Assembly: GCA_022821905.1 (NCBI GenBank)
Contig: JAJECS010000024.1
Coordinates: forward strand, 320,682 to 384,681
Reading direction: 5' to 3'
Length of the DNA: 64,000 nucleotides
From: Chloroflexota bacterium
GTDB lineage: Bacteria; Chloroflexota; UBA11872
The translations under genes were made by a program, and so were the position numbers. Each line of letters opens with the position of its first letter. Position 1 is the first letter of the stretch. Positions 1-64,000 of the stretch are shown here, piece after piece. The notes beneath the pieces are model-generated. The model searched no databases, was not told the DNA's origin, and saw nothing but the letters and a program-made list of their open reading frames with translations.

Positions 1-793
1 CTCATTGACTGGCATCGTTCAGAAAAGCGACGACCTCTCGGAGTCCGACCGCATGGAAACACGAATCGCAGATCAGCACCGCCGGTGCATTGACCACTGG
101 AATACTTTTCTTGACGCCCTGCCTGAGGATGAGGTTTCACTGCCGTCATTCCCGATATGGGGGGACGAGATAGACGCAAACTATTCATATGAGGAAACTA
201 CCCCCTGGGCTCAACTGCTCGCTGCGACTGCTGGCCTAGAGCACAACTTGAATGGGAACGTCTCTTCTAGGGAAGACTTCGAATCCCTTCCGAGCTACGC
301 GCGGAGAGAGGTCGTCGAGTTTCCAGATTGGAAGGTTCGGTTCATCAGGTCAAACCGTGATTGGTTCGCATCAATTCGTGATGAACTTTCACCAGAGTGG
401 CTCACTAGCCTTCGCACGTTCCCCCCGTCTCTCCGAAAGCTTGAGTGGAATTGCCAAGGCGAAGAGAGAGATCTCTGGAAGCACATCCTGCAGTTCAGGC
501 CCTCCGGGCTACGCGTCAAGAGGTACGCAAACAGCCCGTCGCTGGTCGCGATGACCAGCACACAGATTCCTATACTCGGGCCCGAACAGCGACACCTATC
601 CAGGATCGAAGGGCTGCGACTACAGGGCTTCAAAGACAACTTTCGTATTCCGGAGTCTAGGACGGAGACATTCAAGGCGCTTGGGAATGCGGTACATGTG
701 GACGTCGTATACGAGATTGCGAAGCGACTTTTGCGCGGAGAAGAGACCAACGTGGCGCCCGCAAAAAACCCCTCAGGTGCGGGTGCGAGCTAG
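1..793 (+). CDS. dcm: DNA (cytosine-5)-methyltransferase, C-terminal part; 5' end lies outside the window
   Basis: The C-terminus matches C5-MTase motifs IX/X, with ...LRLQGFKDNF...ETFKALGNAVHVDVVYEIAKRLL (ENV/QxxGN[AS]V motif X and the RLQGFPDxF box). The reading frame is open to the window edge. The stop TAG lies at 791-793. Confidence 0.75.
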   Translation, partial: SLTGIVQKSDDLSESDRMETRIADQHRRCIDHWNTFLDALPEDEVSLPSFPIWGDEIDANYSYEETTPWAQLLAATAGLEHNLNGNVSSREDFESLPSYARREVVEFPDWKVRFIRSNRDWFASIRDELSPEWLTSLRTFPPSLRKLEWNCQGEERDLWKHILQFRPSGLRVKRYANSPSLVAMTSTQIPILGPEQRHLSRIEGLRLQGFKDNFRIPESRTETFKALGNAVHVDVVYEIAKRLLRGEETNVAPAKNPSGAGAS

Positions 794-799
794 AGGAGT
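793..799 (+). promoter_or_regulatory. Shine-Dalgarno sequence (AGAGGAG) for the GHKL ATPase gene
   Basis: The motif 'agaggag' sits 5 nt upstream of the ATG at 804 and directly follows the dcm stop codon. Confidence 0.45.
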
Positions 800-803
800 T
801 CGG

Positions 804-2375
804 ATGGTGGCGTCAGAGAGTCAGGAAACGATAGACATTCGACCAGCAGTCAGCGTCTACGCAACCTACAGAAGGCTGAGTTACAAGCCATGGTACGCCA
901 TTGCTGAGTTTGTAGACAACTCTACACAGAGCTACTACGACCATCGAAGTGAACTCGTCGGGATGTACAAGCTAGGCGAAGACCCCGGAAACTTGCGGGT
1001 CGAGGTGGCCTATGACAGCGAGAGAAACGCGCTCACTATCGTGGACAACGCGCATGGGATGGAGATGGATGAACTCACTAGAGCGGTTGTACTTGATAGT
1101 CCACCTCCAAATCCAACGGGACGTTGCGAGTATGGCATGGGGCTAAAGACGGCCGCCTGCTGGTTTGGCACGACTTGGACGATTCGTACCAGCAAGCTAC
1201 GCTCCAATAGGGAGTACACGGCTCGTGTGCATGTCCCAGAGCTGGTAGACAGTCATCTGGACAGCATCGCTGTAGAGGTCGGTCCTACCAAGCCGGAGAC
1301 ACACTACACGTCTATCACCATTGAGGGTCTCTACAAGCCAATCCGCGGAAAGACTCAGAGCCGCGTGAAGGACCAATTGGGCAGCATGTACCGAGAGGAC
1401 CTCCGCTCAGGAGAGATCGAGATCCTATGGAATGGCGAACCCATCTCATACGAAGAGCCCAGATTCCTCGAAGAGGACCTAGGCAACGGCGTCAACAACG
1501 TATGGAAGAAGAGCTTCACCATCGATGTGCCCTGGGAGTCTGACCGGTCGACACTGCACGCCACAGGGTGGGTTGGGGTGAGGACACCAGGAAACCAAAG
1601 AGATTCCGGGTTCGCCTTGCTGAGGCGTGGGCGGGTCATTGTGGGCGGACCGGGCGAAGGCTACAAGCCAGCCGAGGTTTTCGGCCAAGGAAATACATTC
1701 CGCTCTCAGCGTCTCGTCGGTGAGATCAATATGGATGCTTGGCCGGTTACCCAAGCGAAGGATGCGTTCGACTGGTCCGGGGGGCTAGAGGATGACTTCA
1801 TCGAGCAGCTAAAGCGGATATGCCAAGACTATATGGACAAGGCCGAAGGCCATAGAGAGCCCGGCAAGCCTATCACTCAGCCAGTGATGGAGGTGGTATC
1901 AGAACCTCTGAGAAAGGTCTTCTCTGACCAGAGGTTCAGCAATGCAGTGCACGACGAGATCAGGATCCCTGATCCTCCGAAGACTGAGGAGGCAGAGCGG
2001 GCCGACACTGAAATGATACGAAGTGCTAGCAACGGTCCAGTCTCGTATCGTCTAGAGGTAGGGGCAGAGGTCTGGCTCTTCAGGCTCCACTGGCAAGACC
2101 AGCTCAGTGACGCCCATTGGATGCAAGTGAGCGTTAGCCGTGAGAACGAGATTGATATCTTTCTCAACACTGCCCATCCCTTCCTAGCGCCATATGTTTC
2201 CAATCGAGACTCACTTGCCCTACTTCAGAAATTCGTCCTTTCCCTGGCATTGGCCGAGCGTATGGCTCTTCAAATCTCGTCGAGTGGACTCGTAAGCCCT
2301 AGTGACTTTCGAATGTACATGAACAAAGTTCTCAGGCGGGCTGGCGAGATTGAGGTCGAATATGGTCGAGCCTAG
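804..2375 (+). CDS. GHKL-superfamily ATPase (HATPase_c_3 / MORC-MutL-like)
   Basis: Bergerat-fold boxes are present: N box IAEFVDNSTQSY, G1 LTIVDNAHGM and G2 GMGLKTAA. The provided ORF track starts at 681 (MGMRYM...), overlapping the dcm stop; the ATG at 804 with a strong RBS is more plausible. Confidence 0.7.
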   Translation: MVASESQETIDIRPAVSVYATYRRLSYKPWYAIAEFVDNSTQSYYDHRSELVGMYKLGEDPGNLRVEVAYDSERNALTIVDNAHGMEMDELTRAVVLDSPPPNPTGRCEYGMGLKTAACWFGTTWTIRTSKLRSNREYTARVHVPELVDSHLDSIAVEVGPTKPETHYTSITIEGLYKPIRGKTQSRVKDQLGSMYREDLRSGEIEILWNGEPISYEEPRFLEEDLGNGVNNVWKKSFTIDVPWESDRSTLHATGWVGVRTPGNQRDSGFALLRRGRVIVGGPGEGYKPAEVFGQGNTFRSQRLVGEINMDAWPVTQAKDAFDWSGGLEDDFIEQLKRICQDYMDKAEGHREPGKPITQPVMEVVSEPLRKVFSDQRFSNAVHDEIRIPDPPKTEEAERADTEMIRSASNGPVSYRLEVGAEVWLFRLHWQDQLSDAHWMQVSVSRENEIDIFLNTAHPFLAPYVSNRDSLALLQKFVLSLALAERMALQISSSGLVSPSDFRMYMNKVLRRAGEIEVEYGRA

Positions 2376-4512
2376 TCGGACTATCGGGATCGATCCGTTA
2401 CCGGCGGCAGTGGCGTTGTGGGGACCGTCAATCGATGGCGAGGAAATCCGACGCCTTAGAAGTCGATACCAAGAGCGTGTCAGCGAAGAGGATTGGGACG
2501 ATGTTGTAGAAACTGCGGCGTTCATTTTGGGTCGGTGCCCGGCACCGACCGACAACGACCGGAGAGTCACTGGGCTGGCACTAGGCAAGGTTCAGAGCGG
2601 CAAGACTCTCTCCTACACATGCCTTGTTGCGTTGGGCATAGACAATGGCTACCGAGTTACGGTGGTGCTAGCCGGAACGAAGAACCCGCTCTTGGAGCAG
2701 AACTTCACACGGCTCTATAACGACCTGGAAGCCAGACGACCGAGTCTGACCCCTTTCAGGAATCCAATCCCCCAAGATGCGGAGGTCATCAAGAGCGTAC
2801 TCCACGGTAGTGGTCACGCAATGATTGTATTGCTAAAACATCGCAAGCGCCTTGAAGACGCTAGGCGCCTTCTGGCAATCCCAGAGCTAAGGAGTTGCCC
2901 AATCCTCATCATTGATGATGAGGGAGACGAAGCGTCCCTCAACACCCAGTTCCGCCGCGGACGACGGTCCGCGATTTACGAGAGCATCCGTAGGCTAAGG
3001 GGTGCGCTCCGGGTCCACGCCTACGTGGCGTACACCGCAACTCCTCAGGCGAACCTTCTGATATCAGGAATCGATGGCCTCTCACCCGACTTTGGCGCTC
3101 TCGTTGAGCCGGGAAAGGGATACTGTGGCGGAGCTACCTTCTTCGGCTCAGATCGCGATCAATACATCAGAACCGTGCCTTTGGCAGAGTCCGAAGACGA
3201 GCAGGCTTGGGGAATTCCAAATGGCCTCAGGCAGGCTATCGCAACCTTCTTGGTCGGTGGTTCGATCCGCCACCTACGAGAGTCGAACGCATGGCACTCG
3301 ATGCTCATTCACAACAGCAACCTGCGCGCCGACCACGAGAGACTTCAGACGGCGATTCGAAACCTCGTTGAGCTTTGGCGCGAAAGCCTCAGCCTGCCGG
3401 ATTATGACCCTGCCACCCATGAACTTATAGCACTGATGCGCGCGGCCTACGATGACTTGTGCTCCACGGTACCTGATCCCCCGACTTGGGAAGATGTTCG
3501 TCAGCGATTGCGTGATGAGGTCTGGCTCGTCGAGGTGTGGATGGTCAATAGCTTGCCTCTAGGACGTGATCCCATTGGGACACCGTTCAGGCTAAAGAAC
3601 AACATCCTCGTCGGAGGCAACATGCTTGGCCGAGGCGTCACCATCGAGGGCCTCGCGGTCACGTACATAACTCGTCGAGCTAAGAATGAGACTAACGCTG
3701 ACACCATGGAGCAGCGAGCGCGATGGTTTGGCTACAAGAGGGACTATCTTGACGTTTGCCGCATATTCGTAACTGCTCAGCTTCGGGACGACTACACCGA
3801 GATCTTGAGGCACGAAGACGATTTTTGGGAAGCTCTCCGCCGTAACCAACGGCAACGACTGTCTATCCGTGAGTGGCCTCGTATGCTCTCGCTGGATATG
3901 AACTTGGGACTCAAGCCGACTAGGTCACACGTAGCGAACTATCGGCGATTCCGAGGCGGCGGCTGGGACATACAGAACCGCCTCATGGAGAATGAGGCCG
4001 TAGCTAGGCGAAACGTTCGAAAGGTCAGGGCGTTCTTTGCCCAGCGCGAGACGGCGGTCGTCAAATGGTTTGGGAACGTTGCACACCTTGTTGTCGAGGA
4101 CTGCCCAACTGAGGAGGCTGTATCACAACTACTGGCCAACATCGAAGCAGACGGGACAGACTGGGATTTATCCTATACGAGTGAGTACTTGGCACGACTG
4201 CTGCTAGCAGGGGTTCTCCCCCATCTCGACGTTGTATTCATGTCGAGCGGCCAGACACGAGAGCGGACCAAGCGGCAGGGGCGAGTCAACCCAATGCAGG
4301 GTCGCACGCCGGATCGGGACCCTTCTGATCCTGCCTACTACCCCGGGGACGAGAATATTCACGCGGGCCGGGTACAGCTCCAGGTACACGTGATTAGAGT
4401 TCGCGGTGATGGACTGAATCACACCGTCCAGACCACCGCACTAGCCCTCTTTGTGCCGAGCGACGATCCGCGCCTTGACCTCCGATACGTTGTCCGGGAT
4501 GAGAGTCAATGA
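2350..4512 (+). CDS. Z1-domain P-loop NTPase (putative restriction-type enzyme component)
   Basis: The Walker A motif GKVQSGKTLSY is typical of Z1 domains (PF10593-like). Walker-B-like ILIIDDEGDEAS is present. The gene overlaps the 3' end of the GHKL gene (an alternative start at 2362 is possible). Confidence 0.7.
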   Translation: MRSNMVEPSRTIGIDPLPAAVALWGPSIDGEEIRRLRSRYQERVSEEDWDDVVETAAFILGRCPAPTDNDRRVTGLALGKVQSGKTLSYTCLVALGIDNGYRVTVVLAGTKNPLLEQNFTRLYNDLEARRPSLTPFRNPIPQDAEVIKSVLHGSGHAMIVLLKHRKRLEDARRLLAIPELRSCPILIIDDEGDEASLNTQFRRGRRSAIYESIRRLRGALRVHAYVAYTATPQANLLISGIDGLSPDFGALVEPGKGYCGGATFFGSDRDQYIRTVPLAESEDEQAWGIPNGLRQAIATFLVGGSIRHLRESNAWHSMLIHNSNLRADHERLQTAIRNLVELWRESLSLPDYDPATHELIALMRAAYDDLCSTVPDPPTWEDVRQRLRDEVWLVEVWMVNSLPLGRDPIGTPFRLKNNILVGGNMLGRGVTIEGLAVTYITRRAKNETNADTMEQRARWFGYKRDYLDVCRIFVTAQLRDDYTEILRHEDDFWEALRRNQRQRLSIREWPRMLSLDMNLGLKPTRSHVANYRRFRGGGWDIQNRLMENEAVARRNVRKVRAFFAQRETAVVKWFGNVAHLVVEDCPTEEAVSQLLANIEADGTDWDLSYTSEYLARLLLAGVLPHLDVVFMSSGQTRERTKRQGRVNPMQGRTPDRDPSDPAYYPGDENIHAGRVQLQVHVIRVRGDGLNHTVQTTALALFVPSDDPRLDLRYVVRDESQ

Positions 4513-5501
4513 GCCTCGCCACGCTTTTCTCAGAGCTGAAAGATAGGCCATCTGGCCATGCTTTTACCGTAGCCCGAGTATCCGAACATCAGGAGGTTCT
4601 CCTGGGTGTTGATACGACCGGTCACCCAGTTCTATTTGTTCTAGCTGAAGCAGGAGATGTTGAGCCTCCTCTGCGTACCGAGAGAATCTCTCTTCACATC
4701 GGGCAAAGCTACCTCTTGGCGGATATTGATGACTCCCGCAGCGTTGAATTACTGCACGCTCTGCGATGTGAAACCTCTGCGTCAGCCGACGTCGAGACAT
4801 TTCTCCTGCTGGCAGACGCCTTCCTGGCGCGCCAGCAGGAGAGTGGGGCGAACCGACAATCTCTAACGTCGTTCTTTCGCTCTATGGTCCGACTATTCGC
4901 AGTTGCGCCGGCCAAGGATCTCCAGGCAGAGCGACGCGGACTGTGGGGTGAACTGTTTATGATGAGCCGTGTGCGAGGCTTTCGATTCTGGGCACCCTTC
5001 TGGCACAGCGAAGTTTCGCGACGCTTCGATTTCTCTTGCGGTCGCAATCGAGTCGAAGTGAAGATCACGACACGTCCAGAGCGCACGCATCACTTCTCAC
5101 ATAGGCAGATTTATGCCATCGAAGGAGAAGAGATTGTTGTCACATCCATACTTGCGACGGAGGACGACTCTGGCCTTAGCCTACGGCAACTCATCGAAAA
5201 ATGTAGAGCTGCTCTAATGGGAACACCCGATTACCTGAAGCTTGAGAGAGCAGTGCGTCGGGCCGGTATGGAGTCCTCAACAGAAACGGGGCCCGTTATC
5301 GGCGTCGCCGAAGCAGAGGAAGGCCTCGCCTGGTTCCGATCGAGGGATGTCCCGCACTTTCTGGTGCCGGAGCCTCCAGGCGTCACGGAGACCCGCTACA
5401 GAGTGGATCTGTCGACAGCGCCACGACTTACGACCGTGGAGCTCGACGAGTGGCTGCATCATTGGCCCCTAGCGGATTTTCCCAAAGCAGTGAACTGGTA
5501 A
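4509..5501 (+). CDS. PD-(D/E)XK nuclease-fold protein (DUF4420-like)
   Basis: The ATG overlaps the Z1 stop (ATGA). A candidate catalytic core is GLWGELFM...RFDFSCGRNRVEVKIT (D...E-V-K). Confidence 0.55.
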   Translation: MSLATLFSELKDRPSGHAFTVARVSEHQEVLLGVDTTGHPVLFVLAEAGDVEPPLRTERISLHIGQSYLLADIDDSRSVELLHALRCETSASADVETFLLLADAFLARQQESGANRQSLTSFFRSMVRLFAVAPAKDLQAERRGLWGELFMMSRVRGFRFWAPFWHSEVSRRFDFSCGRNRVEVKITTRPERTHHFSHRQIYAIEGEEIVVTSILATEDDSGLSLRQLIEKCRAALMGTPDYLKLERAVRRAGMESSTETGPVIGVAEAEEGLAWFRSRDVPHFLVPEPPGVTETRYRVDLSTAPRLTTVELDEWLHHWPLADFPKAVNW

Positions 5502-5506
5502 GCACG

Positions 5507-6211
5507 GTGCTTCAGCTAGATCAACGGCCGAAGACGGGCTGTAAGCGGAAGATTAGCCAAGAACTTGCAACCACCGTTGTGAGTTGGTTTCGCTGTAATG
5601 GACGGGATTTCCCTTGGCGCGACACCAAAAACCCGTTCCACATCCTCATAGCTGAAGTCTTGCTACGCCAGACCCAGGCGCCTAGAGTGGTCGCACCATA
5701 CGTCCACCTCGTTACCACCTACCCTGATCCTGCTTCTCTAGCCACGGCAGATGTAGATGGTCTTCGTCAGTGGTTTAGGCCTCTCGGTCTAGTTCGGCGT
5801 GCCGATAGCCTCGTCGAATGCGCGCATCGACTGCTGCGAGACTTCCGAGGGCAAGTGCCACAAGACCTGCGGGACCTCCAGTCGCTTCCGGGCATCGGTA
5901 GGTACAGCGCACAAGCAACCCTTTGTATGGCTTTCAATTATTCGCTGCCGATAATCGACGAAAGCTCGGGCCGGGTCCTTCGCCGCGCCCTCGGACTCTC
6001 AGATACTGGCCCAGCATACCGCGACATTCGCCTCATAGAGATCGCTGGACGAGTCGTACCCGACAGTCATCCACGGGACTTCAACTTGGGCCTCCTCGAT
6101 ATAGGGGCGGCCTACTGTCACCCAAGAACACCCGACTGTCTTGAGTGCCCTCTATTGGAGCGCTGCATAGTCGGCTCACAAAAAGCCGGTATCATGAGGC
6201 TACAAGTCTGA
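5507..6211 (+). CDS. HhH-GPD DNA glycosylase with a 4Fe-4S cluster (EndoIII/MutY/Mig family); candidate T:G mismatch glycosylase
   Basis: The N-terminus has the MutY/Nth signature SWFRCNGRDFPWR...HILIAEVLLRQTQ. An HhH motif LPGIGRYSA is present. The C-terminal Cys ligands are C-X6-C-X2-C-X5-C (CHPRTPDCLECPLLERC). A GTG at 5507 lies just after the preceding stop; the ORF track's ATG at 5450 would overlap by 52 nt. Confidence 0.7.
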   Translation: MLQLDQRPKTGCKRKISQELATTVVSWFRCNGRDFPWRDTKNPFHILIAEVLLRQTQAPRVVAPYVHLVTTYPDPASLATADVDGLRQWFRPLGLVRRADSLVECAHRLLRDFRGQVPQDLRDLQSLPGIGRYSAQATLCMAFNYSLPIIDESSGRVLRRALGLSDTGPAYRDIRLIEIAGRVVPDSHPRDFNLGLLDIGAAYCHPRTPDCLECPLLERCIVGSQKAGIMRLQV

Positions 6212-6295
6212 CAACAGATGGACCGCCAGCTAACACAAACTTCAGCGACTGAACGTACACGTCGATCAATGTCGAGAGGAAACTTATTCTCCTAA

Positions 6296-6302
6296 AGGAA
6301 GG
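6296..6302 (+). promoter_or_regulatory. Shine-Dalgarno sequence (AGGAAGG) for the ParB-like gene
   Basis: The motif 'aaggaagggaac' lies immediately upstream of the ATG at 6311. Confidence 0.4.
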
Positions 6303-6310
6303 GAACGATC

Positions 6311-7438
6311 ATGCCTTTGTCCCACACAATTGAATTTCTCACTCTGGACGAACTTTCCTTAGACCCCGGCAACCCACGATTGGCCCTTCCCCGTACCGAC
6401 CCGCCCGTCACTCAGGAGCGCGTATTGGAGCTAATGCGCAGCTGGAATCTTGAGGAATTAGCTGTCTCATTCCTTGAAAGCGGCTTTTGGCCCCAAGAGG
6501 CTGTGATCGTAGTGAAAGAAGAATTGCACGGTAAGCCTGACACGTTGGTAGTCGTGGAAGGTAACCGCCGAATCGCCGCCCTCAAATGCCTTAAGCAAGC
6601 ATTCGATGGAAAAGCCCCTTCCAGGAAATGGCGCACATTAGTAGAAGGAGCCACATCCAATAGTGAGCTATTTTCAAGAATTCCTTACATCCTTGCCGAC
6701 TCCCGTGCCGACGTCACTGCCTATCTTGGCTTCAGACACGTGACAGGAATAAAGCAATGGGAACCAACTCAAAAGGCCGAGTTCATCGCGACCATGATTG
6801 ATGATTTGGGGATGACTTACGATTCAGTACGCAAGCAGATTGGAATGCGGACCGATACGGTGCGCAGAAACTACATCGCCTACCGCATCGTCAAACAGAT
6901 GGAAGCACTAGACATAGACGTCTCGGAGCGGGGAGTTGAGAGCAGGTTCAGTGTGCTTTTCCTGTCTCTTAGAGAAGAAGGTGTGCGTTCTTTTCTGGGA
7001 ATAGACATACAGTCTGATCCTGGCAACGCTCAACTCCCGGTACCAGAAGAAATGAAAGACAGCTTATCAGACTTCGCCAAATGGATGTTCGGTACAGACC
7101 AACAGCGCCCCCTCTTTGCTGACTCCAGATATGTGGGCAGTTTAGCCCGAATCCTGTCAAGCCCCGAGGCTGTCGATTATCTCAGGTCATCGCCCGTGCC
7201 CAGCTTTGATGTAGCTCTCCAAAAGGCTGGAGTCGAAGACGAGGAAATCGAAAGTCAACTCAAAGAAGCCAGCAACCAAATGGAGTTAGCTCTGAGCAAA
7301 GTACATTTGCACCTTGATTCCGAAGCAATTCAAAAGGCAATGGTGCGACTTGCATTGAACGCCAAGGAGCTTGTATCTAAGTTTCCATCCATTGCTAACA
7401 CAATTGGACTGAGAACAGGTGACAATAGCAATGCTTAG
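6311..7438 (+). CDS. ParB/Srx-fold N-terminal domain protein with central HTH
   Basis: The N-terminus reads LDELSLDPGNPRL...VVVEGNRRIAALKCL (ParB box-II-like G-N-R-R). An HTH-like segment is TQKAEFIATMIDDLGMTYDSVRKQIGMRTDTVRRNY. No ParA partner lies nearby. Confidence 0.55.
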   Translation: MPLSHTIEFLTLDELSLDPGNPRLALPRTDPPVTQERVLELMRSWNLEELAVSFLESGFWPQEAVIVVKEELHGKPDTLVVVEGNRRIAALKCLKQAFDGKAPSRKWRTLVEGATSNSELFSRIPYILADSRADVTAYLGFRHVTGIKQWEPTQKAEFIATMIDDLGMTYDSVRKQIGMRTDTVRRNYIAYRIVKQMEALDIDVSERGVESRFSVLFLSLREEGVRSFLGIDIQSDPGNAQLPVPEEMKDSLSDFAKWMFGTDQQRPLFADSRYVGSLARILSSPEAVDYLRSSPVPSFDVALQKAGVEDEEIESQLKEASNQMELALSKVHLHLDSEAIQKAMVRLALNAKELVSKFPSIANTIGLRTGDNSNA

Positions 7439-8348
7439 ACATCCCGCTGGATTTCTTCAATCCGTCCGTGACCAAAACACATCAGTGTTCCTCGACTGGT
7501 TGGAGGCGACTAACCTGTTCTTGGAGGAAGAACTCTCCCAAACTGTAGTCGTCGACCACCTGATGCAGGAACAGATTTTTCAAGACCAAGACAGTGCCTA
7601 CACGTTTGTCGCGGCCGCGTGGTCCGCTCTAGATAGGCGCTTGTCCTGGCTAGGATCGCACACACCCATCGTCTTCAAGGACAGATGGATGATCAGGCAG
7701 TTGGATTGGCAAGATGTCCCCGCCCATAGCTACTGCCTGATCGTATCTCTCGGTTCTCAATACGAAGATTGGCATGCCACGTTTGGGCCTAGCTACATTA
7801 AACAAGGTTGCTTGTTTGAGTCGATTACAAGTGCAGCGATGGAGTCCAGGTTTCGCGGGTGGACATTCCTTCAGACTGGGTGGAGCAGAGACAACGCCTC
7901 CAAGCTCGCCGAAGTCATCGATGACCTGGTGTCGGACATCGACGAACGGAAGGGAAATCCCGACGTCTACCTTGACGAAGACGCTAAGGATGCCGGAGTC
8001 GATTTGGTATGGCATCTGCGATTCACCGATGCCCGAGGTGGTGCGCCGATATACCTTGCGCAATGCGCCAGCGGCAAGAACTGGGTCGACAAGGTTAACG
8101 AGCCCAACATCAAGGAGTGGACTAAGATTGTCGACTTCGCGGTACCACCCAGTAAGGCATTCTCGCTTCCCTTTTCCCTTAGCGAATCGGAGATGCGTCG
8201 CCAGAGCAACCGAGCCGGTGGTGTAATGGTCGATAGATACAGGCTTCTTGCACAAGATGGCTCCGAGAGTACGTGGCTTCCTGGCCCATTACGCCATAAA
8301 TTGATTGACTGGCTTGATCAGAGGATAGACTGGATCATAGGCGAATAG
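7419..8348 (+). CDS. hypothetical protein, translationally coupled to the ParB-like gene
   Basis: The ORF is 309 aa and its start lies 20 nt before the upstream stop. It has normal amino-acid composition and no domain I can name with confidence. A possible nuclease-like segment is DAGVDLVWHL...IYLAQCASGKNW. Confidence 0.5.
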   Translation: MTIAMLRHPAGFLQSVRDQNTSVFLDWLEATNLFLEEELSQTVVVDHLMQEQIFQDQDSAYTFVAAAWSALDRRLSWLGSHTPIVFKDRWMIRQLDWQDVPAHSYCLIVSLGSQYEDWHATFGPSYIKQGCLFESITSAAMESRFRGWTFLQTGWSRDNASKLAEVIDDLVSDIDERKGNPDVYLDEDAKDAGVDLVWHLRFTDARGGAPIYLAQCASGKNWVDKVNEPNIKEWTKIVDFAVPPSKAFSLPFSLSESEMRRQSNRAGGVMVDRYRLLAQDGSESTWLPGPLRHKLIDWLDQRIDWIIGE

Positions 8349-8399
8349 GAGACTTGCTATGACCTTCGTTCAACTGTGACGAGCACGTCCACCAGACAA

Positions 8400-8560
8400 T
8401 CCTGGAAGAGCGCTGCCGGCCCACATTCAAACGTGCCTTGATTCCCCGATCCACCGCCCTGCGAGCCGATCCGGCGCGGAATCTCCAATACTACAACCAC
8501 GACCGGGCTCACACCGGACGCCGGGCCCAAGGCCGCGCCCCGGCGCAGGTCTTGGGGGGC
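8400..8560 (+). pseudogene. transposase C-terminal remnant (IS481/IS3-type integrase core tail)
   Basis: Translation gives ...LQYYNHDRAHTGRRAQGRAPAQVLGG, the conserved Y-N-x-x-R-P-H...TP-A-x-V tail of DDE transposases. Only about 50 codons remain and the upstream part is absent. It sits exactly at the GC transition. Confidence 0.5.
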
Positions 8561-9639: not shown

Positions 9640-10737
9640 CTACGTGGCGATTTCGATGAGGTCGCCGTTGTCCGTGCGCAGGACGAGTTGTCCGCCCTTG
9701 ACGGCGACGATTCGCGCGCTCGCGGCGCGCCGTCCCGACCGGGCCGCCCGGCGAAACGTCCGCCCGTTCGGCAGCCGATCCAGGGGCGAGTGCGCCCGGT
9801 GGCGGCTGACCACGTCAGACGAGGCGAGATGCAGATAGTGGTTCACCATCATCAGCGTCGTGTGGCCCAGGATCCGCTGCAGCGTCAGCACGTCGCCGCC
9901 GGCTCGGAGGTAGGTCACCCCGAACGTGTGGCGAAAGCGATGCGGGTGGATGTTCGCCAGATCGGCTCGCTCCGCCAGCCGCTTGAGCACGCGCCCGAGG
10001 GTGTAGCGCGTCAACGGCCGGCGCTGGCGCGTCAGAAACACCCGGTCCGCGGCCGGGTCCGGGTCGTCCGGCCACGGGCGCGCGAGCTGCAGGTACCGAT
10101 CCACCATCGACCGGGCGCGCTGGCCCAGCGCCACCGTGCGGTCGCGGGCACCCTTGCCTCCGCGCACGCGCACCTCGCCCGAGGCCAGGTCGAGATCCGC
10201 CACGCGCAGGCGGCAGAGCTCCGAGGAGCGCAGGCCGGTATCGAGCAGCACGCTCAGGATGGCCAGGTCGCGCAGGCCCAGCGGCGAGCGCGGATCGCAC
10301 GCGTCCAGCAGGCGCTGCTGGTCGTCCGCCGCGATGGGCTCGACCTCGCGCGTCGGCAGCCGCCCCGGTCGAAACGTCCCCAGGGGATGGGCGTCCACGT
10401 ACCCCGCCTCGGCGAGCCAGCCGGCGAACGCCCGCAGCACGCGGCAGTAGCCGTTGACGGTGTGGGCGGCCCGGCGCTCGCCCTCGTGTCCCGGCTTGCG
10501 CCGCGGGCGTGCCATCGGCGCGGTGCGCAGATGGCGCTGCCAGCGACGGGCCAGCTCCAGCGTCAGGGCGCCGACATCGCTCGCCGCCACGCTATCGGCG
10601 TAGTGCGCGAAGCGGCGCAACACGGCGCGTTTCCAGCCCAGCGTGGCGCGCGACTGGCCCTCGGCCTCGCAGGCCGCCAGGTACTCCGCGATGGCCTCGG
10701 GGAGCGGCGCGCTGGTCCCGATCGGCATGTCTCCCAT
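9640..10737 (-). CDS. int: tyrosine recombinase/integrase (phage integrase family)
   Basis: The catalytic region contains LDTGLRSSEL...HPHRFRHTFGVTYL...ILGHTTLMMVNHYLHL (R...HxxR...Y). The likely start is the ATG at 10735-10737 (MGDMPIG...); the longer track ORF extending to 10989 would run into the tRNA. Confidence 0.75.
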   Translation of the reverse strand: MGDMPIGTSAPLPEAIAEYLAACEAEGQSRATLGWKRAVLRRFAHYADSVAASDVGALTLELARRWQRHLRTAPMARPRRKPGHEGERRAAHTVNGYCRVLRAFAGWLAEAGYVDAHPLGTFRPGRLPTREVEPIAADDQQRLLDACDPRSPLGLRDLAILSVLLDTGLRSSELCRLRVADLDLASGEVRVRGGKGARDRTVALGQRARSMVDRYLQLARPWPDDPDPAADRVFLTRQRRPLTRYTLGRVLKRLAERADLANIHPHRFRHTFGVTYLRAGGDVLTLQRILGHTTLMMVNHYLHLASSDVVSRHRAHSPLDRLPNGRTFRRAARSGRRAASARIVAVKGGQLVLRTDNGDLIEIAT

Positions 10738-10962
10738 GATCCTGCCTCCAGCGTCGGCGGAGCGGTCAAGCGTCCGCCGACCGTTGGCCGGACGTCGGAA
10801 AGCGCAGGGGAGCGTTTGGCAAGCGTTCGATTTCGTGGGTGAGGCTAGTGCCCTTGGTCCCAACCTCGAAAAAGCTAGTGACCCTTCGCGCGCCTCACCG
10901 TGGCGGCGGTCGCTGCCGCCGCCACGCCGCTCCATCAGGTTTGACGGAGCCGCTGTCGAGGG

Positions 10963-11046
10963 TGCCGAGGGCGGGACTCGAACCCGCACAGCCCGGAGGC
11001 CACTAGCCCCTCAAGCTAGCGCGTCTACCAATTCCGCCACCTCGGC
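10963..11046 (-). tRNA. tRNA-Leu (anticodon GAG), class II with a long variable arm
   Basis: The reverse complement folds as GCCGAGG acceptor / GCGG D-stem / CTAGC-TTGAGGG-GCTAG anticodon arm / long V-arm / GCGGGTTCGAGTCCCGC T-arm / CCTCGGC-A. It is near-identical in architecture to E. coli tRNA-Leu. No CCA is encoded. Confidence 0.85.
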
Positions 11047-31960: not shown

Positions 31961-33118
31961 TCAGGCTCCCGCCGCCGATGGCGACGGCTCGACCTGCTCT
32001 CGGCGCGGCATCCAGGGCAGCACCGCCAGCACCACCAATTGCGCCAGCGCCATGCCGGCGAACGCCACGTTCAATCCCGCGGCGTCGCCGATGATGCCGG
32101 TGACGTAGTTGCCAACGGCGCCGGCGCCGAAGGACAAGCCGAGCACGACGCCGCTGGCCGCCCCCATGTGACCCGGCAGCAACCGCTGCACCATCACGAC
32201 GGTGGGCGTGAAACCGGCGCCAAGGAACGCCCCCATCACCGCGCCAAGCGGAATGTGCCACGGGCCGAACGGCAGCAGGCCAAAGGCCAGCATCGCCGGA
32301 ATCATCACCAGCGATGACACGGCGAGAATCCGGCGCACGCCGAAGCGGTCGGTGGAGACGCCGCCGGCGAAGGCGCCCACCGCGTGGCCGATCAGATAAG
32401 CCGAAAGCACGATGCCCGCGCGCACGGGGTCCGGCCGGTCGGGCGACACGAACACGGGCACGAAGGTCACCAGCGCGGCGTAGGCCCAGCCGCGCACCAC
32501 GGCCACCAGCAAAAGTCCGACGAGCGCCGCCGAAATCCCGCCGAACGCGGTCCGCCCCACGGCGACGCCGACGCTCGGCCGTTGCGGGGCCTGGAAGTTC
32601 CGCAGCGACCACGCCATGAACGCCGACACCACGAGCACCGGCGCCAGCACCACCGGCATCCAGTCGGTGCCGCCGGCCTCGAGCACCCCACCAAGGATCA
32701 GCGGCGCGACGGCGAACGCGGCGTGACCGCCCAAGAAGAACAGCGCGACGTTCGTGCCGGTGTTGCGGCCCTGGGCCTCGTTGGCAATGGCCGCGCCCTG
32801 CGGGTGAAACGCCGCGACGCCAACGGCAGCCACCACCAGGTACACCACCAGCAACGGATAGCTGGGCGCGAACGCGGCCACGGCCACCCACACCGCGATC
32901 CAGGCCGGGCTGAGCGAGGCGAGCCAGCGCCTTCCCGCGCGGTCGCCGATGTAGCCAAAGAGCGGCTGGATTACCGAGGTCGTCAGGGCCCAGGCAAGCG
33001 CCGCCAGACCGATCATGCCGTAGGACATATCCAGCCGCACGGCCAGGATGGGATAGAGCATGCTCGGCCCCAGGGCGGAGAAGTCCGACGCGAAATGGCC
33101 CACGGCAACGGTGAACAC
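31961..33118 (-). CDS. MFS transporter
   Basis: 385 aa, about 12 TM segments, MFS-like loop GYIGDRAGRR. An alternative long ORF in another frame (31938-33272) has biased, non-protein-like composition. Confidence 0.55.
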   Translation of the reverse strand: MFTVAVGHFASDFSALGPSMLYPILAVRLDMSYGMIGLAALAWALTTSVIQPLFGYIGDRAGRRWLASLSPAWIAVWVAVAAFAPSYPLLVVYLVVAAVGVAAFHPQGAAIANEAQGRNTGTNVALFFLGGHAAFAVAPLILGGVLEAGGTDWMPVVLAPVLVVSAFMAWSLRNFQAPQRPSVGVAVGRTAFGGISAALVGLLLVAVVRGWAYAALVTFVPVFVSPDRPDPVRAGIVLSAYLIGHAVGAFAGGVSTDRFGVRRILAVSSLVMIPAMLAFGLLPFGPWHIPLGAVMGAFLGAGFTPTVVMVQRLLPGHMGAASGVVLGLSFGAGAVGNYVTGIIGDAAGLNVAFAGMALAQLVVLAVLPWMPRREQVEPSPSAAGA

Positions 33119-55784: not shown

Positions 55785-56021
55785 GTCCCTTCCGATCGCG
55801 ACAGGGGATCGCCAGGCAGTCTACGCAAGCGACCGATAACGGTGGCCGGTCGCGTGATTAGCGAGTCCGGATGCGCGACGGTTCGACACGCTCGCCACAA
55901 GCTGACGGCGACTTCGCCCACGCAACGTCGACGCACCATGCCGACAATGCTTCCCAGCCGCCTATAGTTCGCTCAGGCGGGACTGTCGACGGTCCGCCGG
56001 TGACCGAGGCCGGGTGCGTTC

Positions 56022-57263
56022 GTGGCGGCACGAATCGGAGAGACGGTGAGGGCGGTGTTGGGCACGGGGGCGGCCGGCCCGCTCACGGGGGAGGCGAGGG
56101 CCAACTTCCGGCGAGATCTCGCCTTTCAGCTGCTCACTGGCGTGTTCCTGGGAGTGGTGCTCAACTTCTTTCCGGTGGTGGCTCGCCGTCTCGGCGCCGG
56201 CGAGTTTCTCCTCGCGCTGCTCACAGCGGGCACCTATCTGGGGGCGCTGGTGAGTCTGGGCGCGCCATACGTGCTGCGCACGCTGCAGCCGGCGCGCCGT
56301 ATCGCACTGATCTGGGCGGTCGGACGGGCGCTGTGGATCGCGGCGCTGTTTGTGACGGCGCCCACATGGTTCGCAATCATCGCGCTCGGCTACTTCCTCC
56401 TCTCGGGTCTCCCGCGGCCAGGCGTCACCTGGCTCATGCAAGGGGCCTATCCCGCCCCGCTACGCGGACGCCTCCTGGCCGCCGCGCGCATGGCCATGGC
56501 CGTCGCGGCGCTGATCACCGCTCCGATCGCCGGCCTGCTGCTCGACGTCGTTGGCCACGGTCCGATCCTCGCCGGTGCATCCGTCGTCGGCGTGCTCGCC
56601 ACGGCGGCTTTCGCCGGCATCAAATCCTCGGACCCCCGCCCGTTTCGACGGCGGAACCCCTGGGTGCTCGCGCGCGGGGCCTTTGCCACGCCGTCCTTCC
56701 GCGGATTCGTGGGCGCCTGGAACACGATGGGCTTCGGGATCGCCGTGATGATGCCTGCGGTTCCGATCGTGCTGGTGGATCATTTGCACGCCAGCTTCGG
56801 CACAGTGGGCGTGCTCTCGCTGCTCGCCGGTGTCGCGCAGGCGGTCTGCTTCCCCCTGTGGGGTCGGCTGATCGACCGGCGCACGGGGCCGTTCGGCGCC
56901 GCGCTGGCCATATGCGTTCAATTAGCGTCGCCGGTCATATTCCTCGTCGCCATGGCCACGACTCAGGTGGGAGTCCTCGCCGCGGCCTATCTGGCGATGG
57001 GCGTTGCCGGCGCGGGATTCGTCCTGGGATCGCAGACGACCCTGATGTCGCTGGCGCGCCCCGAGGACACGCCGCCGCTGGCCACGACCTTCAATGCTTC
57101 CGCCGGGCTCTTTGGCGTCGCGGGCCCGTTTGCCGGCGGTCTCCTGCTCATTGCGGGCGGGCCGAATCTCGCGCTCTCCGTCGCCGCCGCGCTCACATTT
57201 GCCGGGGCCGTTCTGATGCTCCGCGTCGCGCGCTCGTTTCGGCCCGCCGATGCCCTAGCGTAG
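56022..57263 (+). CDS. MFS transporter
   Basis: 413 aa and hydrophobic, with about 12 TM segments. Confidence 0.5.
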   Translation: MAARIGETVRAVLGTGAAGPLTGEARANFRRDLAFQLLTGVFLGVVLNFFPVVARRLGAGEFLLALLTAGTYLGALVSLGAPYVLRTLQPARRIALIWAVGRALWIAALFVTAPTWFAIIALGYFLLSGLPRPGVTWLMQGAYPAPLRGRLLAAARMAMAVAALITAPIAGLLLDVVGHGPILAGASVVGVLATAAFAGIKSSDPRPFRRRNPWVLARGAFATPSFRGFVGAWNTMGFGIAVMMPAVPIVLVDHLHASFGTVGVLSLLAGVAQAVCFPLWGRLIDRRTGPFGAALAICVQLASPVIFLVAMATTQVGVLAAAYLAMGVAGAGFVLGSQTTLMSLARPEDTPPLATTFNASAGLFGVAGPFAGGLLLIAGGPNLALSVAAALTFAGAVLMLRVARSFRPADALA

Positions 57264-62956: not shown

Positions 62957-63850
62957 ATGGGATATCTCGTAGCGGCCGTGGCGCTGGCGGTGTCGTTTGG
63001 GCTGATTCAGCGTGCGGCCCAGCGGCGGCGCGGGCACTACTTCTATGTGACCGGCACAAACTACGCCGTCGCCGCGCTCGTGGCGCTGGCGTGGGTGGCT
63101 GTACGGAGCGACTGGCAGGCGTCGGCGCTGACCTATTGGGTGGGTGCGCTCAACGGCGTGGGATTCGCCGTGCTCATCATCTTGCAGTACTTCATGCTTG
63201 GTCAGCGTGGGGTGGGCGTCACCTTTGCTCTCGGTTCGCTGGCACTGCTGGCGCCGATCACGGTTTCTCTGGTGGTGTTTGGCGAGCCCGCCGACCTCGT
63301 CACGCTCGTCGGCATCGCCCTGCTCGTGGTCGCGGCGCCGCTAATCGCCTACCGCCGCATGCCCATGCTGCCGGCGGTGCGGGTGGGCCTCTATTGGGCC
63401 GTGGTCGCCGGCCTGCTGGGATTCACCGCCGGCACGCTGATCTCGTGGAAGGTCATCAACGAGGTCACGCCCGCCGCCGATCGCGGAGCGTTCGTGCTGG
63501 CAACGTTTGCCGGCGCGACCGTGATCGCGGGACTAACGCTCGCCATCCGGCGCTGGAGCGAGGGTCCGGGTCCGCCGGTGCGTCGGGAGGGCCACGCCGG
63601 TGCGCTGGCGTGGATCCCGCTGCCGGTCGTGATGGGCGTGGGCCTGGGTCTGTGCAACGTGGTGCAGCTGTGGCTGTTCCTGGCCGCGCTGCGCGAGGTG
63701 CCGGGGGCGGTGGCCTTTCCGGTGCACAGTGCGGGCACGGTGCTCCTCATCACCCTGGCCGGCTGGATCGTCTGGCGCGAGCGACACGGGCCGGTCACGT
63801 TGGTCGGCATCGCGGCGGCGCTGGCTGGGTTGGTGCTGGTCAATCTGTGA
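62957..63850 (+). CDS. DMT/EamA-like integral membrane protein
   Basis: 297 aa with about 10 hydrophobic helices and two internally similar halves. Confidence 0.4.
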   Translation: MGYLVAAVALAVSFGLIQRAAQRRRGHYFYVTGTNYAVAALVALAWVAVRSDWQASALTYWVGALNGVGFAVLIILQYFMLGQRGVGVTFALGSLALLAPITVSLVVFGEPADLVTLVGIALLVVAAPLIAYRRMPMLPAVRVGLYWAVVAGLLGFTAGTLISWKVINEVTPAADRGAFVLATFAGATVIAGLTLAIRRWSEGPGPPVRREGHAGALAWIPLPVVMGVGLGLCNVVQLWLFLAALREVPGAVAFPVHSAGTVLLITLAGWIVWRERHGPVTLVGIAAALAGLVLVNL

Positions 63851-64000
63851 GCCGCCCGGACCCCTCACCCCAACCCTTGTATGTGCCAGGGCGGGTATGT
63901 TCCGAGGACTCTCGGAATGTCCGAGGGCATAGCCCGGGCCGGGACAGACCGATTGACCCTGGGGCCCTTGCGAGCCCGTGGGAGAGCGGGGTCGTCCCGG

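What the first reader, a model, noticed from the sequence alone, without database searches (positions are those of the whole stretch)
6311..8348. ParB-like/HTH protein translationally coupled to an unknown 309-aa protein: candidate two-gene defence or partition-derived cassette
It sits on the same AT-rich cargo immediately after the dcm cluster. The first protein has a ParB/Srx N-domain (VVEGNRRIAAL) plus an HTH but no ParA partner. The second gene starts 20 nt before the first gene's stop. ParB/Srx-fold domains recur in defence proteins (DndB, the DUF262 domain of GmrSD/BrxU). A split GmrS/GmrD-like or DndB-like function is conceivable; the second protein has a weak D...Q/N...K/N nuclease-like patch (DAGVDLVWHL...YLAQCASGKNW).
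Basis: inference. Interest (0 to 1): 0.6.

Follow-up and report, generated by a model that had tools for sequence, protein, structure and literature searches.

The report
ParB-like switch plus nuclease, methylase-linked
The two overlapping genes are real and encode a ParB-type nucleotide-binding DNA-binding protein and a restriction-endonuclease-like protein; across many bacterial phyla and P2-like phages this pair sits beside a DNA-modifying enzyme, usually a cytosine methylase, so it is most likely the DNA-cutting half of an uncharacterised restriction-modification-like defence system.

Summary
Gene A (6311-7438, 375 aa) and gene B (309 aa from GTG 7419; homologues support ATG 7431, 305 aa, 8-nt overlap) are intact and coupled. 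They lie on a low-GC island (0.55 vs 0.69) next to an integrase and tRNA-Leu.

A folds as a ParB/KorB/Noc N-domain plus HTH. Its DxxNPR, EGNRR and GxxHxxG...W...KA motifs are invariant. B is a winged helix plus an Mrr/MspJI-like PD-(D/E)XK fold, with invariant D191, Q211 and K221. Neither protein matches any Pfam or NCBIfam model.

The pair is not a free-standing cassette. Of 43 informative loci, 36 have a C5 methylase beside A-B, often with Vsr or a MutY-like glycosylase. Two have a partial Dcm cluster, three have dndCDEA phosphorothioation genes instead, and two have no modification gene.

Remote A-like/B-like pairs sit beside a C5 methylase in the P2-phage cargo hotspot (Wphi gp98-gp96-mth) and beside a Dam-like methylase in Vibrio.

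Best reading (0.55): A-B is the restriction half of a modular, modification-linked system. The nearest validated relative is PD-lambda-5 (ParB/HEPN plus methyltransferase). The mechanism is inferred, not shown. Novelty: a new variant of a known kind.

The parts
6311..7438 (+). Gene A, 375 aa: ParB-fold N-domain, then an HTH DNA-binding domain, then an all-helical C-terminal region (about residues 206-364) with no recognisable family
   Evidence: ORF. AlphaFold model pLDDT 85. Foldseek PDB hits are ParB, KorB, Noc and Spo0J (E 2e-5, prob 1.0) followed by sulfiredoxin. PADLOC PD-Lambda-5_A E 1.5e-20 over residues 10-219, and PDC-M38A 1.7e-18. phrog_3694 2e-57 full length. No Pfam or NCBIfam hit.
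6362..6379 (+). A residues D18-R23 (LDPGNPR): ParB box-I-like motif
   Evidence: D18, N21, P22 and R23 are invariant in 49 homologues and in 5 remote A-like proteins.
6557..6571 (+). A residues E83-G-N-R-R87: ParB box-II / P-motif equivalent (GxRR), the predicted NTP-phosphate-binding arginines
   Evidence: Invariant in close and remote relatives. Sub-threshold PF02195 ParB_N hits cover the same region in all 5 remote A-like proteins.
6728..6778 (+). A residues G140-A156 (GFRHVTGIKQWEPTQKA): box-III-like segment leading into the HTH
   Evidence: G140, H143, G146, W150, K155 and A156 are invariant, remote relatives included.
6764..6907 (+). A residues about 152-199: helix-turn-helix domain. The recognition helix ..TVRRNYIAYRI.. 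is conserved within the Dcm-linked family and variable in remote clades with other methylases.
   Evidence: Helices H152-164, H170-177 and H181-199 in the model. The structural alignment to ParB N-domain plus HTH spans 260-280 columns.
7431..7438 (+). 8-nt overlap ATGCTTAG between the start of B and the stop of A (translational coupling)
   Evidence: Sequence. Junction distances are -17 to +8 nt in 48 of 48 loci, with modes at -1, -8 and -4.
7431..8348 (+). Gene B, 305 aa from ATG 7431 (the ORF is open from GTG 7419): N-terminal winged helix (about residues 1-95) plus an Mrr/MspJI-like PD-(D/E)XK nuclease fold (about residues 120-275)
   Evidence: Model pLDDT 90, pTM 0.90. Foldseek PDB hits: MspJI (E 8e-3, prob 0.99), VC1899/Can2/Card1/Cdn1 nucleases, BsaWI, EcoT38I, BspD6I small subunit, Ecl18kI, SgrAI; the E2F-DP and cullin winged helices match the N-terminal part. 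BFVD hits: 'Restriction endonuclease', 'type IV Mrr domain', RPB5, UL24. phrog_14650 1e-20. No Pfam, NCBIfam or PADLOC hit.
8001..8093 (+). Putative active-site residues of B: D191 (8001-8003, in AGVDLVW at the start of a beta strand), Q211 (8061-8063, in YLAQCASG at the end of the next strand) and K221 (8091-8093, in NWVDK)
   Evidence: Invariant in 49 homologues and in 5 remote B-like proteins. The strand positions come from the DSSP of the model. E130 (QGxLFE) is invariant only within the close family.
5..793 (+). C-terminal part of a C5 cytosine DNA methyltransferase (Dcm), cut by the window edge: the predicted modification partner
   Evidence: PF00145 2e-10. phmmer E 4.5e-134 to the Dcm of the three-gene locus L006. 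Dcm lies beside A-B in 36 non-redundant loci.
681..5501 (+). [not shown]
   Evidence: Pfam hits. PADLOC 'Type II helicase domain protein' 6e-53. These genes are absent from many A-B plus Dcm loci.
5450..6211 (+). MutY/EndoIII-family glycosylase, a likely stand-in for Vsr in T:G repair after 5mC deamination
   Evidence: HhH-GPD, TIGR01084 4e-45, and PADLOC 'Type II nicking endonuclease' 1e-36. It alternates with Vsr next to Dcm in related loci.
9640..11046 (-). Tyrosine integrase (9640-10989) and tRNA-Leu(gag) (10961-11046): the integration module and attachment side of the low-GC island
   Evidence: PF00589 1.6e-40. ARAGORN tRNA call. GC profile.

Best explanation
A and B are the effector ('restriction') half of a modular DNA-modification-linked defence system. 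Its modification half in this window is the Dcm methylase at the left edge.

Shown. A is a ParB-fold protein (N-domain, HTH, helical C-terminus) with invariant box I/II/III-like residues. B is a winged helix plus an Mrr-like PD-(D/E)XK fold with invariant D191, Q211 and K221. The two genes are always adjacent and overlapping, and they diverge together. The pair sits next to a DNA-modifying enzyme in nearly every informative locus.

For: Structure and motifs:
- A model matches ParB/KorB/Noc (E 2e-5, prob 1.0).
- B model matches MspJI and other restriction endonucleases and Mrr-type 'restriction endonuclease' viral proteins.
- Motifs are invariant out to remote relatives.

Gene coupling:
- A stop to B start is -17 to +8 nt in 48/48 loci.
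- Pairwise identities of A and B correlate (Mantel rho 0.74, p 5e-4).

Context census. The loci span Chloroflexota, Latescibacterota, Planctomycetota, Poribacteria, Acidobacteriota, Pseudomonadota and Verrucomicrobiota.
- Dcm lies beside A-B in 36 non-redundant loci, in every order and orientation. Many are bare triads, with or without Vsr (L006, L003, L016, L019-L024).
- 2 further loci have a partial Dcm cluster, cut by a contig end or an IS21 insertion.
- 3 loci have dndC-D-E-A instead (L031, L037, L047).
- Only L017 and L054 lack a modification gene despite at least 6.8 kb of flank on each side.
- A also co-diverges with Dcm (rho 0.51, p 5e-4). The partner Dcm proteins mostly form one clade of 42-63% identity.

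Remote pairs with the same layout:
- E. coli phage 12474III, Wphi gp98-gp96-mth and Pseudomonas phage D14A carry a convergent C5 methylase.
- Vibrio campbellii carries a D12 N6-adenine methylase.
- L068 is A-B-Dcm.

Precedents:
- PD-lambda-5 is 'ParB/HEPN' plus a methyltransferase, is a validated anti-phage system, and shares A's N-terminal module (PMC9519451).
- SspE, GmrSD and BrxU couple a ParB-fold NTPase to a nuclease (PMC10952713).
- CglI/NgoAVII couple an NTP-driven subunit and a nuclease to a C5 methylase (PMC5861437, PMC4267653).
Against: There is no biochemical or genetic evidence for this family.

B lacks the canonical lysine two residues after Q211 (QCA rather than QxK). The proposed K221 is inferred from conservation alone, and the fold matches are weak (TM about 0.3, E 5e-4 to 1e-2).

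A's box III (GFRHVTG) differs from ParB's ENLQR, so NTP hydrolysis, and even which nucleotide is bound, is uncertain.

Some pairs have no visible modification gene: L017, L054, Persicobacter pPP2 and the conjugative-element locus L070. That is unexpected for a nuclease that attacks unmodified DNA, unless the methylase is encoded elsewhere.

It is unclear how one protein pair could read three chemically different marks. In this window A-B is separated from Dcm by four genes.

B's closest structural matches (MspJI, Mrr) are modification-dependent enzymes.
Confidence: 0.55

Rival explanations
1. Modification-sensing or modification-dependent enzyme (Type IV-like or SspE-like). A-B recognises a modified base or backbone rather than its absence. 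It would either cut foreign modified DNA, or be switched on by the host's own mark as SspE is by phosphorothioate.
For: B's best structural matches are MspJI and Mrr-type domains. ParB-fold NTPase plus nuclease proteins such as GmrSD and BrxU are Type IV enzymes, and SspE is stimulated by the host mark (PMC10952713). A few pairs have no methylase nearby.
Against: A pure Type IV enzyme has no reason to sit beside a methylase in 36 of 43 informative loci and to co-diverge with it. An enzyme attacking 5mC would be self-toxic next to Dcm. The SspE-like version, activated by the self mark, is not excluded and overlaps with the best explanation.
Confidence: 0.15
2. A is a KorB- or C-protein-like transcriptional controller of the restriction-modification genes, and B alone is a conventional sequence-specific Type II endonuclease.
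For: A lies directly upstream of B and overlaps it, as control (C) genes do with R genes (established knowledge of C-R operons). A matches KorB, a CTP-dependent repressor clamp. A has an HTH.
Against: No conserved palindrome or operator lies upstream of A in 10 related loci. A is more conserved than B (mean identity 0.52 vs 0.41) and keeps an invariant NTP-pocket motif. In PD-lambda-5 the same N-terminal module is fused directly to an effector domain, which points to a role in effector control rather than transcription.
Confidence: 0.12
3. A back-up abortive-infection or toxin module that guards the methylase or restriction system (the 'RM+Abi' idea proposed for PD-lambda-5). A-B would fire on host or phage nucleic acid when a phage disables methylation or restriction.
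For: The authors of PD-lambda-5 describe it as a compacted RM+Abi system (PMC9519451). In this window a separate candidate restriction module already accompanies Dcm. Stand-alone nucleases in Dnd neighbourhoods have been proposed as suicide effectors (PMC10853773).
Against: Many loci are bare A-B plus Dcm triads with no other restriction gene to guard. B has a DNA-binding winged helix and a DNase-type fold rather than an RNase such as HEPN.
Confidence: 0.1
4. [not shown]
Confidence: 0.04
5. A remnant plasmid or chromosome partition ParB with an unrelated neighbour.
For: The ParB N-domain plus HTH fold. One remote homologue is annotated 'ParB/RepB/Spo0J family partition protein'.
Against: There is no ParA here or in related loci. 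The pair sits in chromosomal islands and in a phage cargo hotspot, and it is invariably coupled to B and to modification genes.
Confidence: 0.02

Closest known systems
PD-lambda-5 (Vassallo et al. 2022, PMC9519451): 'ParB/HEPN' protein plus methyltransferase, from an E. coli ECOR7 prophage
   Same: It pairs a ParB-fold N-terminal module with an effector and a DNA methyltransferase. A matches the PADLOC PD-Lambda-5_A models (E 1.5e-20). Relatives of A occupy the P2-type prophage cargo hotspot. PD-lambda-5 is a validated broad anti-phage system that methylates host DNA (a delta-mrr host was needed).
   Different: Only about the first 160-220 residues of the roughly 470-position PD-Lambda-5_A profile match. 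There the effector is a fused HEPN domain. Here it is a separate winged-helix plus PD-(D/E)XK protein with no PADLOC model, and A carries a full ParB-type HTH and a helical C-terminus. That system has two genes and this one has three. Whether the methylase classes match was not tested.
GmrSD / BrxU / SspE (DUF262 ParB-fold NTPase plus DUF1524 HNH nuclease)
   Same: A ParB/Srx-fold NTPase controls a DNA nuclease in a system that reads DNA modification. SspE works with a host modification module, SspABCD (PMC10952713).
   Different: A gives no DUF262 or DndB hit. Its motif is EGNRR rather than DGQQR or DGQHR, and its structure matches canonical ParB with an HTH. The nuclease is PD-(D/E)XK rather than HNH. 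The two functions lie on separate proteins. GmrSD and BrxU have no cognate methylase.
ParB / KorB / Noc CTP-dependent DNA clamps
   Same: The N-domain plus HTH fold. Box I and box II residues are conserved. A helical C-terminal region could dimerise.
   Different: There is no ParA and no identified parS. Box III differs (GFRHVTG against ENLQR). Sequence similarity falls below Pfam and PDB-profile detection. The obligatory partner is a nuclease-fold protein.
[not shown]
   Different: The proteins are unrelated. CglI uses an SF2 motor and a B3-PLD nuclease, whereas this system uses a ParB-fold switch and a PD-(D/E)XK nuclease.
Mrr / MspJI-type endonucleases
   Same: B has an N-terminal winged-helix-like domain and a C-terminal Mrr-like fold with a D...Q... 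motif.
   Different: There is no Mrr_cat or Mrr_N Pfam hit. The lysine of QxK is missing, and K221 is proposed to replace it. B is always paired with A and usually with a methylase, unlike the solitary Type IV enzymes.

Membership tests
ParB/Srx (ParB-CTPase fold) superfamily | ParB N-terminal domain fold | tested here: met
   Foldseek hits to ParB, KorB, Noc and Spo0J at E 2e-5 to 3e-3 with prob 1.0, followed by sulfiredoxin. phrog_1033 ParB-like 6e-4. Sub-threshold PF02195 hits in 5 remote relatives.
ParB/Srx (ParB-CTPase fold) superfamily | Box II / P-motif arginines (GxRR) | tested here: met
   E83-G-N-R-R87 is invariant in close and remote homologues.
ParB/Srx (ParB-CTPase fold) superfamily | Binding or hydrolysis of CTP, ATP or GTP | not testable with these tools
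   This needs a DRaCALA or ITC assay. A published survey found that sequence cannot predict which NTP a ParB fold binds (PMC12704722).
Canonical ParABS partition ParB | Adjacent ParA ATPase and parS sites | tested here: not met
   No ParA-like ORF lies in the window's first 16 kb or in about 60 related loci. No conserved palindrome lies upstream of A.
PD-lambda-5 defence system | Homology to PD-Lambda-5_A | tested here: inconclusive
   The match is significant but partial: E 1.5e-20 over residues 10-219 against profile positions 14-219 of 473. In the phage relatives only about residues 1-160 match.
PD-lambda-5 defence system | HEPN effector domain fused to the ParB module | tested here: not met
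   The C-terminal half of A has no Pfam or PADLOC match. The effector candidate is the separate protein B.
PD-lambda-5 defence system | Adjacent DNA methyltransferase | tested here: met
   Dcm lies in the same island and directly beside A-B in 36 loci. Whether it is homologous to PD-Lambda-5_B was not examined.
GmrSD / SspE / BrxU (DUF262 plus DUF1524) | DUF262 domain with DGQQR motif | tested here: not met
   No PF03235 or NCBIfam hit at E<=5. The motif is EGNRR.
GmrSD / SspE / BrxU (DUF262 plus DUF1524) | HNH/DUF1524 nuclease | tested here: not met
   B has a PD-(D/E)XK-like fold and no HNH motif.
DndB | DndB/DGQHR domain, encoded with dndCDE | tested here: not met
   No DndB Pfam or NCBIfam hit. 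Three loci do place A-B beside dndCDEA, but A keeps the ParB-like HTH architecture.
PD-(D/E)XK (Mrr-like) nucleases | Restriction-endonuclease core fold | tested here: met
   [not shown]
PD-(D/E)XK (Mrr-like) nucleases | Catalytic D...(E/Q)xK triad | tested here: inconclusive
   D191 and Q211 are invariant and sit on successive strands. The +2 position is Ala213. K221, in the following helix, is invariant and could substitute. The geometry could not be checked.
Restriction-modification system (generic) | Nuclease gene genetically linked to a DNA-modification gene | tested here: met
   41 of 43 informative loci. Co-divergence with Dcm.
Restriction-modification system (generic) | Cleavage of unmodified DNA that is blocked by the cognate modification | not testable with these tools
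   This requires in vivo restriction assays and in vitro cleavage assays.

The most novel reading that the evidence does not exclude
A is a ParB-type NTP-gated DNA clamp that loads at unmodified target sites and then licenses or delivers nuclease B. That would make A-B a new class of nucleotide-dependent restriction enzyme whose 'reader plus cutter' pair has been combined in evolution with three unrelated marking chemistries (5mC, m6A, phosphorothioate). It would be the first case of the ParB CTPase clamp mechanism being used for self/non-self discrimination.
Probability: 0.3. Interest if true: 0.85.

Novelty: new variant of a known kind. Interest (0 to 1): 0.66.

Why it matters
If the reading is right, it defines a widespread family of modification-linked defence systems that current annotation misses. 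B alone has 2489 clusters at 50% identity, spread over many phyla and P2-like coliphages. Pfam and NCBIfam have no model for either protein, and PADLOC has none for B.

It would connect the well-studied ParB/KorB nucleotide-switch mechanism to restriction. It would also give a mechanistic context for the validated but unexplained PD-lambda-5 system.

Homologous triads occur in E. coli phages: Wphi gp98-gp96-mth and vB_EcoM-12474III. The hypothesis can therefore be tested in E. coli with standard phage and plasmid restriction assays.

Tried and rejected
Searches that returned nothing:
- Pfam and NCBIfam on A and B, even at E<=5.
- PDB sequence searches with single sequences and with profiles.
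- tblastn of B against phage records and a scan of viral contigs with the B alignment. Phage relatives of B emerged only by profile comparison, after they had been located through A.
- Cluster look-up, which gave no source names, and a look-up of the exact window protein on contigs.

Ideas tested and dropped:
- A HEPN domain in A's C-terminal half, as in PD-lambda-5_A. There is no match, and the conserved SRVH lacks the Rx4-6H spacing.
- A conserved operator or parS-like palindrome, or a promoter or terminator, around A. None was found.
- The literature was searched for a described ParB plus restriction-endonuclease plus methylase system. The ParB-fold survey (PMC12704722), the Dnd reappraisal (PMC10853773), the BREX survey (PMC12839542) and the Menshen paper (PMC12065111) do not describe this pair. 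'MTaX1' could not be resolved.
Full report
**1. The observation**

The two ORFs are present as described: 6311-7438 (375 aa, ATG) and 7419-8348 (309 aa, GTG). They lie on a low-GC segment. GC is 0.548 for 1-8348 against 0.688 for the rest of the window; A is 0.498 and B is 0.531.

The upstream genes were identified:
- the C-terminal part of a C5 methylase (5-793);
- a GHKL-type HATPase_c_3 protein (681-2375);
- a DUF4420 PD-(D/E)XK protein (4509-5501);
- a MutY/EndoIII-like glycosylase (5450-6211).

Downstream lie a remnant of a transposase C-terminus, a tyrosine integrase (9640-10989, minus strand) and tRNA-Leu (10961-11046). The pair is therefore cargo of an island integrated at a tRNA gene.

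One detail needs correcting. The database version of B has 305 aa (P0001) and the family profile starts at ATG 7431. The overlap with A is then 8 nt (ATGCTTAG), not 20 nt.

**2. What the proteins are**

Neither protein matches Pfam or NCBIfam, and neither matches PDB sequences.

*Protein A.* It has 1796 homologues. Its AlphaFold model has pLDDT 85. The model matches the N-domain plus HTH of ParB, KorB, Noc and Spo0J (E 2e-5, prob 1.0, 260-280 aligned columns), followed by sulfiredoxin. Three motifs are invariant in 49 homologues and in five remote relatives:
- D18-x-x-N-P-R23;
- G140-x-x-H-x-x-G146...W150...K155-A156.

The last 160 residues are helical and match nothing.

*Protein B.* Its model is confident (pLDDT 90, pTM 0.90). 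It has an N-terminal winged-helix-like domain and a C-terminal alpha/beta core.
- The best PDB matches are weak but uniformly restriction-endonuclease folds: MspJI, BsaWI, EcoT38I, the BspD6I small subunit, Ecl18kI, SgrAI, and the Can2/Card1/VC1899 nucleases.
- In the viral library the matches are 'Restriction endonuclease', 'type IV Mrr domain', UL24 and RPB5.
- D191 (in AGVDLVW), Q211 (in YLAQCASG) and K221 (in NWVDK) are invariant even in remote relatives. So are D22, R70, R269 and R271.
- An HMM search of 1.84 billion cluster representatives finds 2489 B-like clusters, almost all stand-alone proteins of 300-320 aa.

**3. The pair and its neighbours**

I scanned genome and metagenome collections with the B alignment. 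I added loci found by exact-protein look-up. I then annotated all loci with my own profiles and with Pfam for the exceptions.

A lies directly upstream of B wherever the upstream DNA is present. The distance from A's stop to B's start is -17 to +8 nt in 48 of 48 cases.

The key result is the third partner.

| Context of A-B | Loci | Examples |
|---|---|---|
| C5 methylase beside or clustered with A-B | 36 | bare triads L006, L016, L019, L021-L023; triads with Vsr L003, L020, L024, L033, L039, L049, L050; with a MutY-like glycosylase L028, L043; the seven-gene form in the window, L007-L010, L012, L013 |
| Partial Dcm cluster | 2 | L041 (contig end), L018 (IS21 insertion) |
| dndC-dndD-dndE-dndA on the opposite strand, no methylase | 3 | L031, L037, L047; L031 also has an upstream Pbe-like ABC-ATPase/DndE module (cf. 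PMC10853773) |
| No modification gene despite at least 6.8 kb of flank on both sides | 2 | L017, L054 |

The loci come from Chloroflexota, Latescibacterota, Planctomycetota, Poribacteria, Acidobacteriota, Pseudomonadota and Verrucomicrobiota. The methylase appears in every order and orientation relative to A-B.

Pairwise identities of A and B correlate strongly (Mantel rho 0.74). A also correlates with Dcm (rho 0.51). The partner methylases mostly belong to one clade of 42-63% identity.

**4. More distant relatives**

tblastn with A finds P2-like phages. Three of them carry an A-like protein, an overlapping gene of 300-370 aa and a convergent C5 methylase, located in the cargo hotspot next to the portal gene:
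- E. coli phage vB_EcoM-12474III;
- Wphi (gp98, gp96, mth);
- Pseudomonas phage D14A.

The middle proteins are remote homologues of B (hhalign 82-95%), and they share the GxD, QC, W..K and DRxR motifs.

Other remote cases:
- Vibrio campbellii has the same layout with a D12-class N6-adenine methylase.
- A Persicobacter plasmid and a conjugative element (L070) carry the pair with no recognisable methylase.

The link to a modification gene is therefore strong but not absolute in remote clades.

**5. Interpretation**

A nuclease-fold protein, obligatorily paired with a nucleotide-switch-fold DNA-binding protein, recurs next to three unrelated DNA-marking enzymes. This is the genomic signature of the restriction half of a restriction-modification-like system.

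The closest validated system is PD-lambda-5. Its two genes are annotated 'ParB/HEPN' and 'methyltransferase', and it protects E. coli broadly (PMC9519451). A matches its ParB module (E 1.5e-20) but not its effector half. B has no PADLOC model.

Functional precedents exist. SspE, GmrSD and BrxU each pair a ParB-fold NTPase with a nuclease (PMC10952713). CglI/NgoAVII combine a C5 methylase, a nuclease and an NTP-driven subunit.

The proposed mechanism is that A reads unmodified sites, that NTP-dependent closure or conformational change follows, and that B then cuts. This is inference. Nothing here shows NTP binding, complex formation, cleavage or sensitivity to modification.

Points that count against it:
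- Q211 is not followed by a lysine at +2.
- The fold scores for B are weak.
- A has a non-ParB box III.
- Some pairs are orphans with no modification gene nearby.
- B's nearest structures are modification-dependent enzymes.

**6. Rivals**

- A modification-sensing, SspE-like or Type IV-like reading (0.15) is not excluded.
- The idea that A is a KorB- or C-protein-like regulator of an ordinary endonuclease (0.12) fits the gene order. It finds no conserved operator. It also sits poorly with the fusion of the same module to an effector in PD-lambda-5.
- A back-up abortive-infection module (0.10) is possible.

**7. Novelty and verdict**

I found no description of this pair in the surveys of the ParB fold, Dnd, BREX or Menshen systems. 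The principle, a ParB-fold switch plus a nuclease plus a modification enzyme, is known. The architecture and the family are not. I therefore class it as a new variant of a known kind.

- Interest: 0.66.
- Confidence in the main reading: 0.55.
- The clamp-restriction reading has a probability of about 0.3 and would deserve about 0.85 interest if true.

Noticed in passing
[not shown]
   Followed up: partly
window 5450-6211: A MutY/EndoIII-family glycosylase (TIGR01084 4e-45; PADLOC 'Type II nicking endonuclease') occupies the place that Vsr holds next to Dcm in other loci. This suggests a glycosylase route for repairing T:G mismatches that arise from 5mC deamination.
   Followed up: partly
window about 8361-8560: Directly after B's stop, one reading frame gives ..ILEERCRPTFKRAL...LQYYNHDRAHTGRRAQG.., which looks like the C-terminal end of an IS481/IS3-type DDE transposase. 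It is a truncated remnant lying where GC rises from about 0.52 to 0.60-0.68, and it may mark the edge of the acquired cassette.
   Followed up: no
window 9640-11046: A tyrosine integrase sits next to tRNA-Leu(gag). The longest integrase ORF overlaps the tRNA, so its true start is probably further downstream. The island extends beyond the left end of the window, so its other boundary is unseen.
   Followed up: partly
L031 418-12275 (also L037, L047): Here A-B is sandwiched between a Pbe-like module (a 693-aa protein, a DndD/CxC-type ABC ATPase and a small DndE-like protein) and a convergent dndC-dndD-dndE-dndA operon that has no dndB. The ParB-fold protein A may stand in for DndB there.
   Followed up: partly
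[not shown]
   Followed up: no
L063-L065 (phages vB_EcoM-12474III, Wphi, vB_PaeM-D14A): The P2-type cargo hotspot next to portal gene Q carries an A-like, B-like and C5-methylase triad. A DUF3850 (PUA-like) gene lies nearby in the two coliphages.
   Followed up: partly
window 32001-33000, 56001-57000, 63001-64000: The 1-kb composition profile shows strong local AT-skew excursions in these bins (+0.42, -0.31, -0.29). They are unrelated to this finding and unexplained.
   Followed up: no
PADLOC model PDC-M38A (715 positions): A and its phage relatives match positions about 56-355 of this candidate-defence protein model. That is a longer stretch than the match to PD-Lambda-5_A, so a larger ParB-like defence protein shares A's N-domain, HTH and part of its helical region. 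Its partners were not examined.
   Followed up: no
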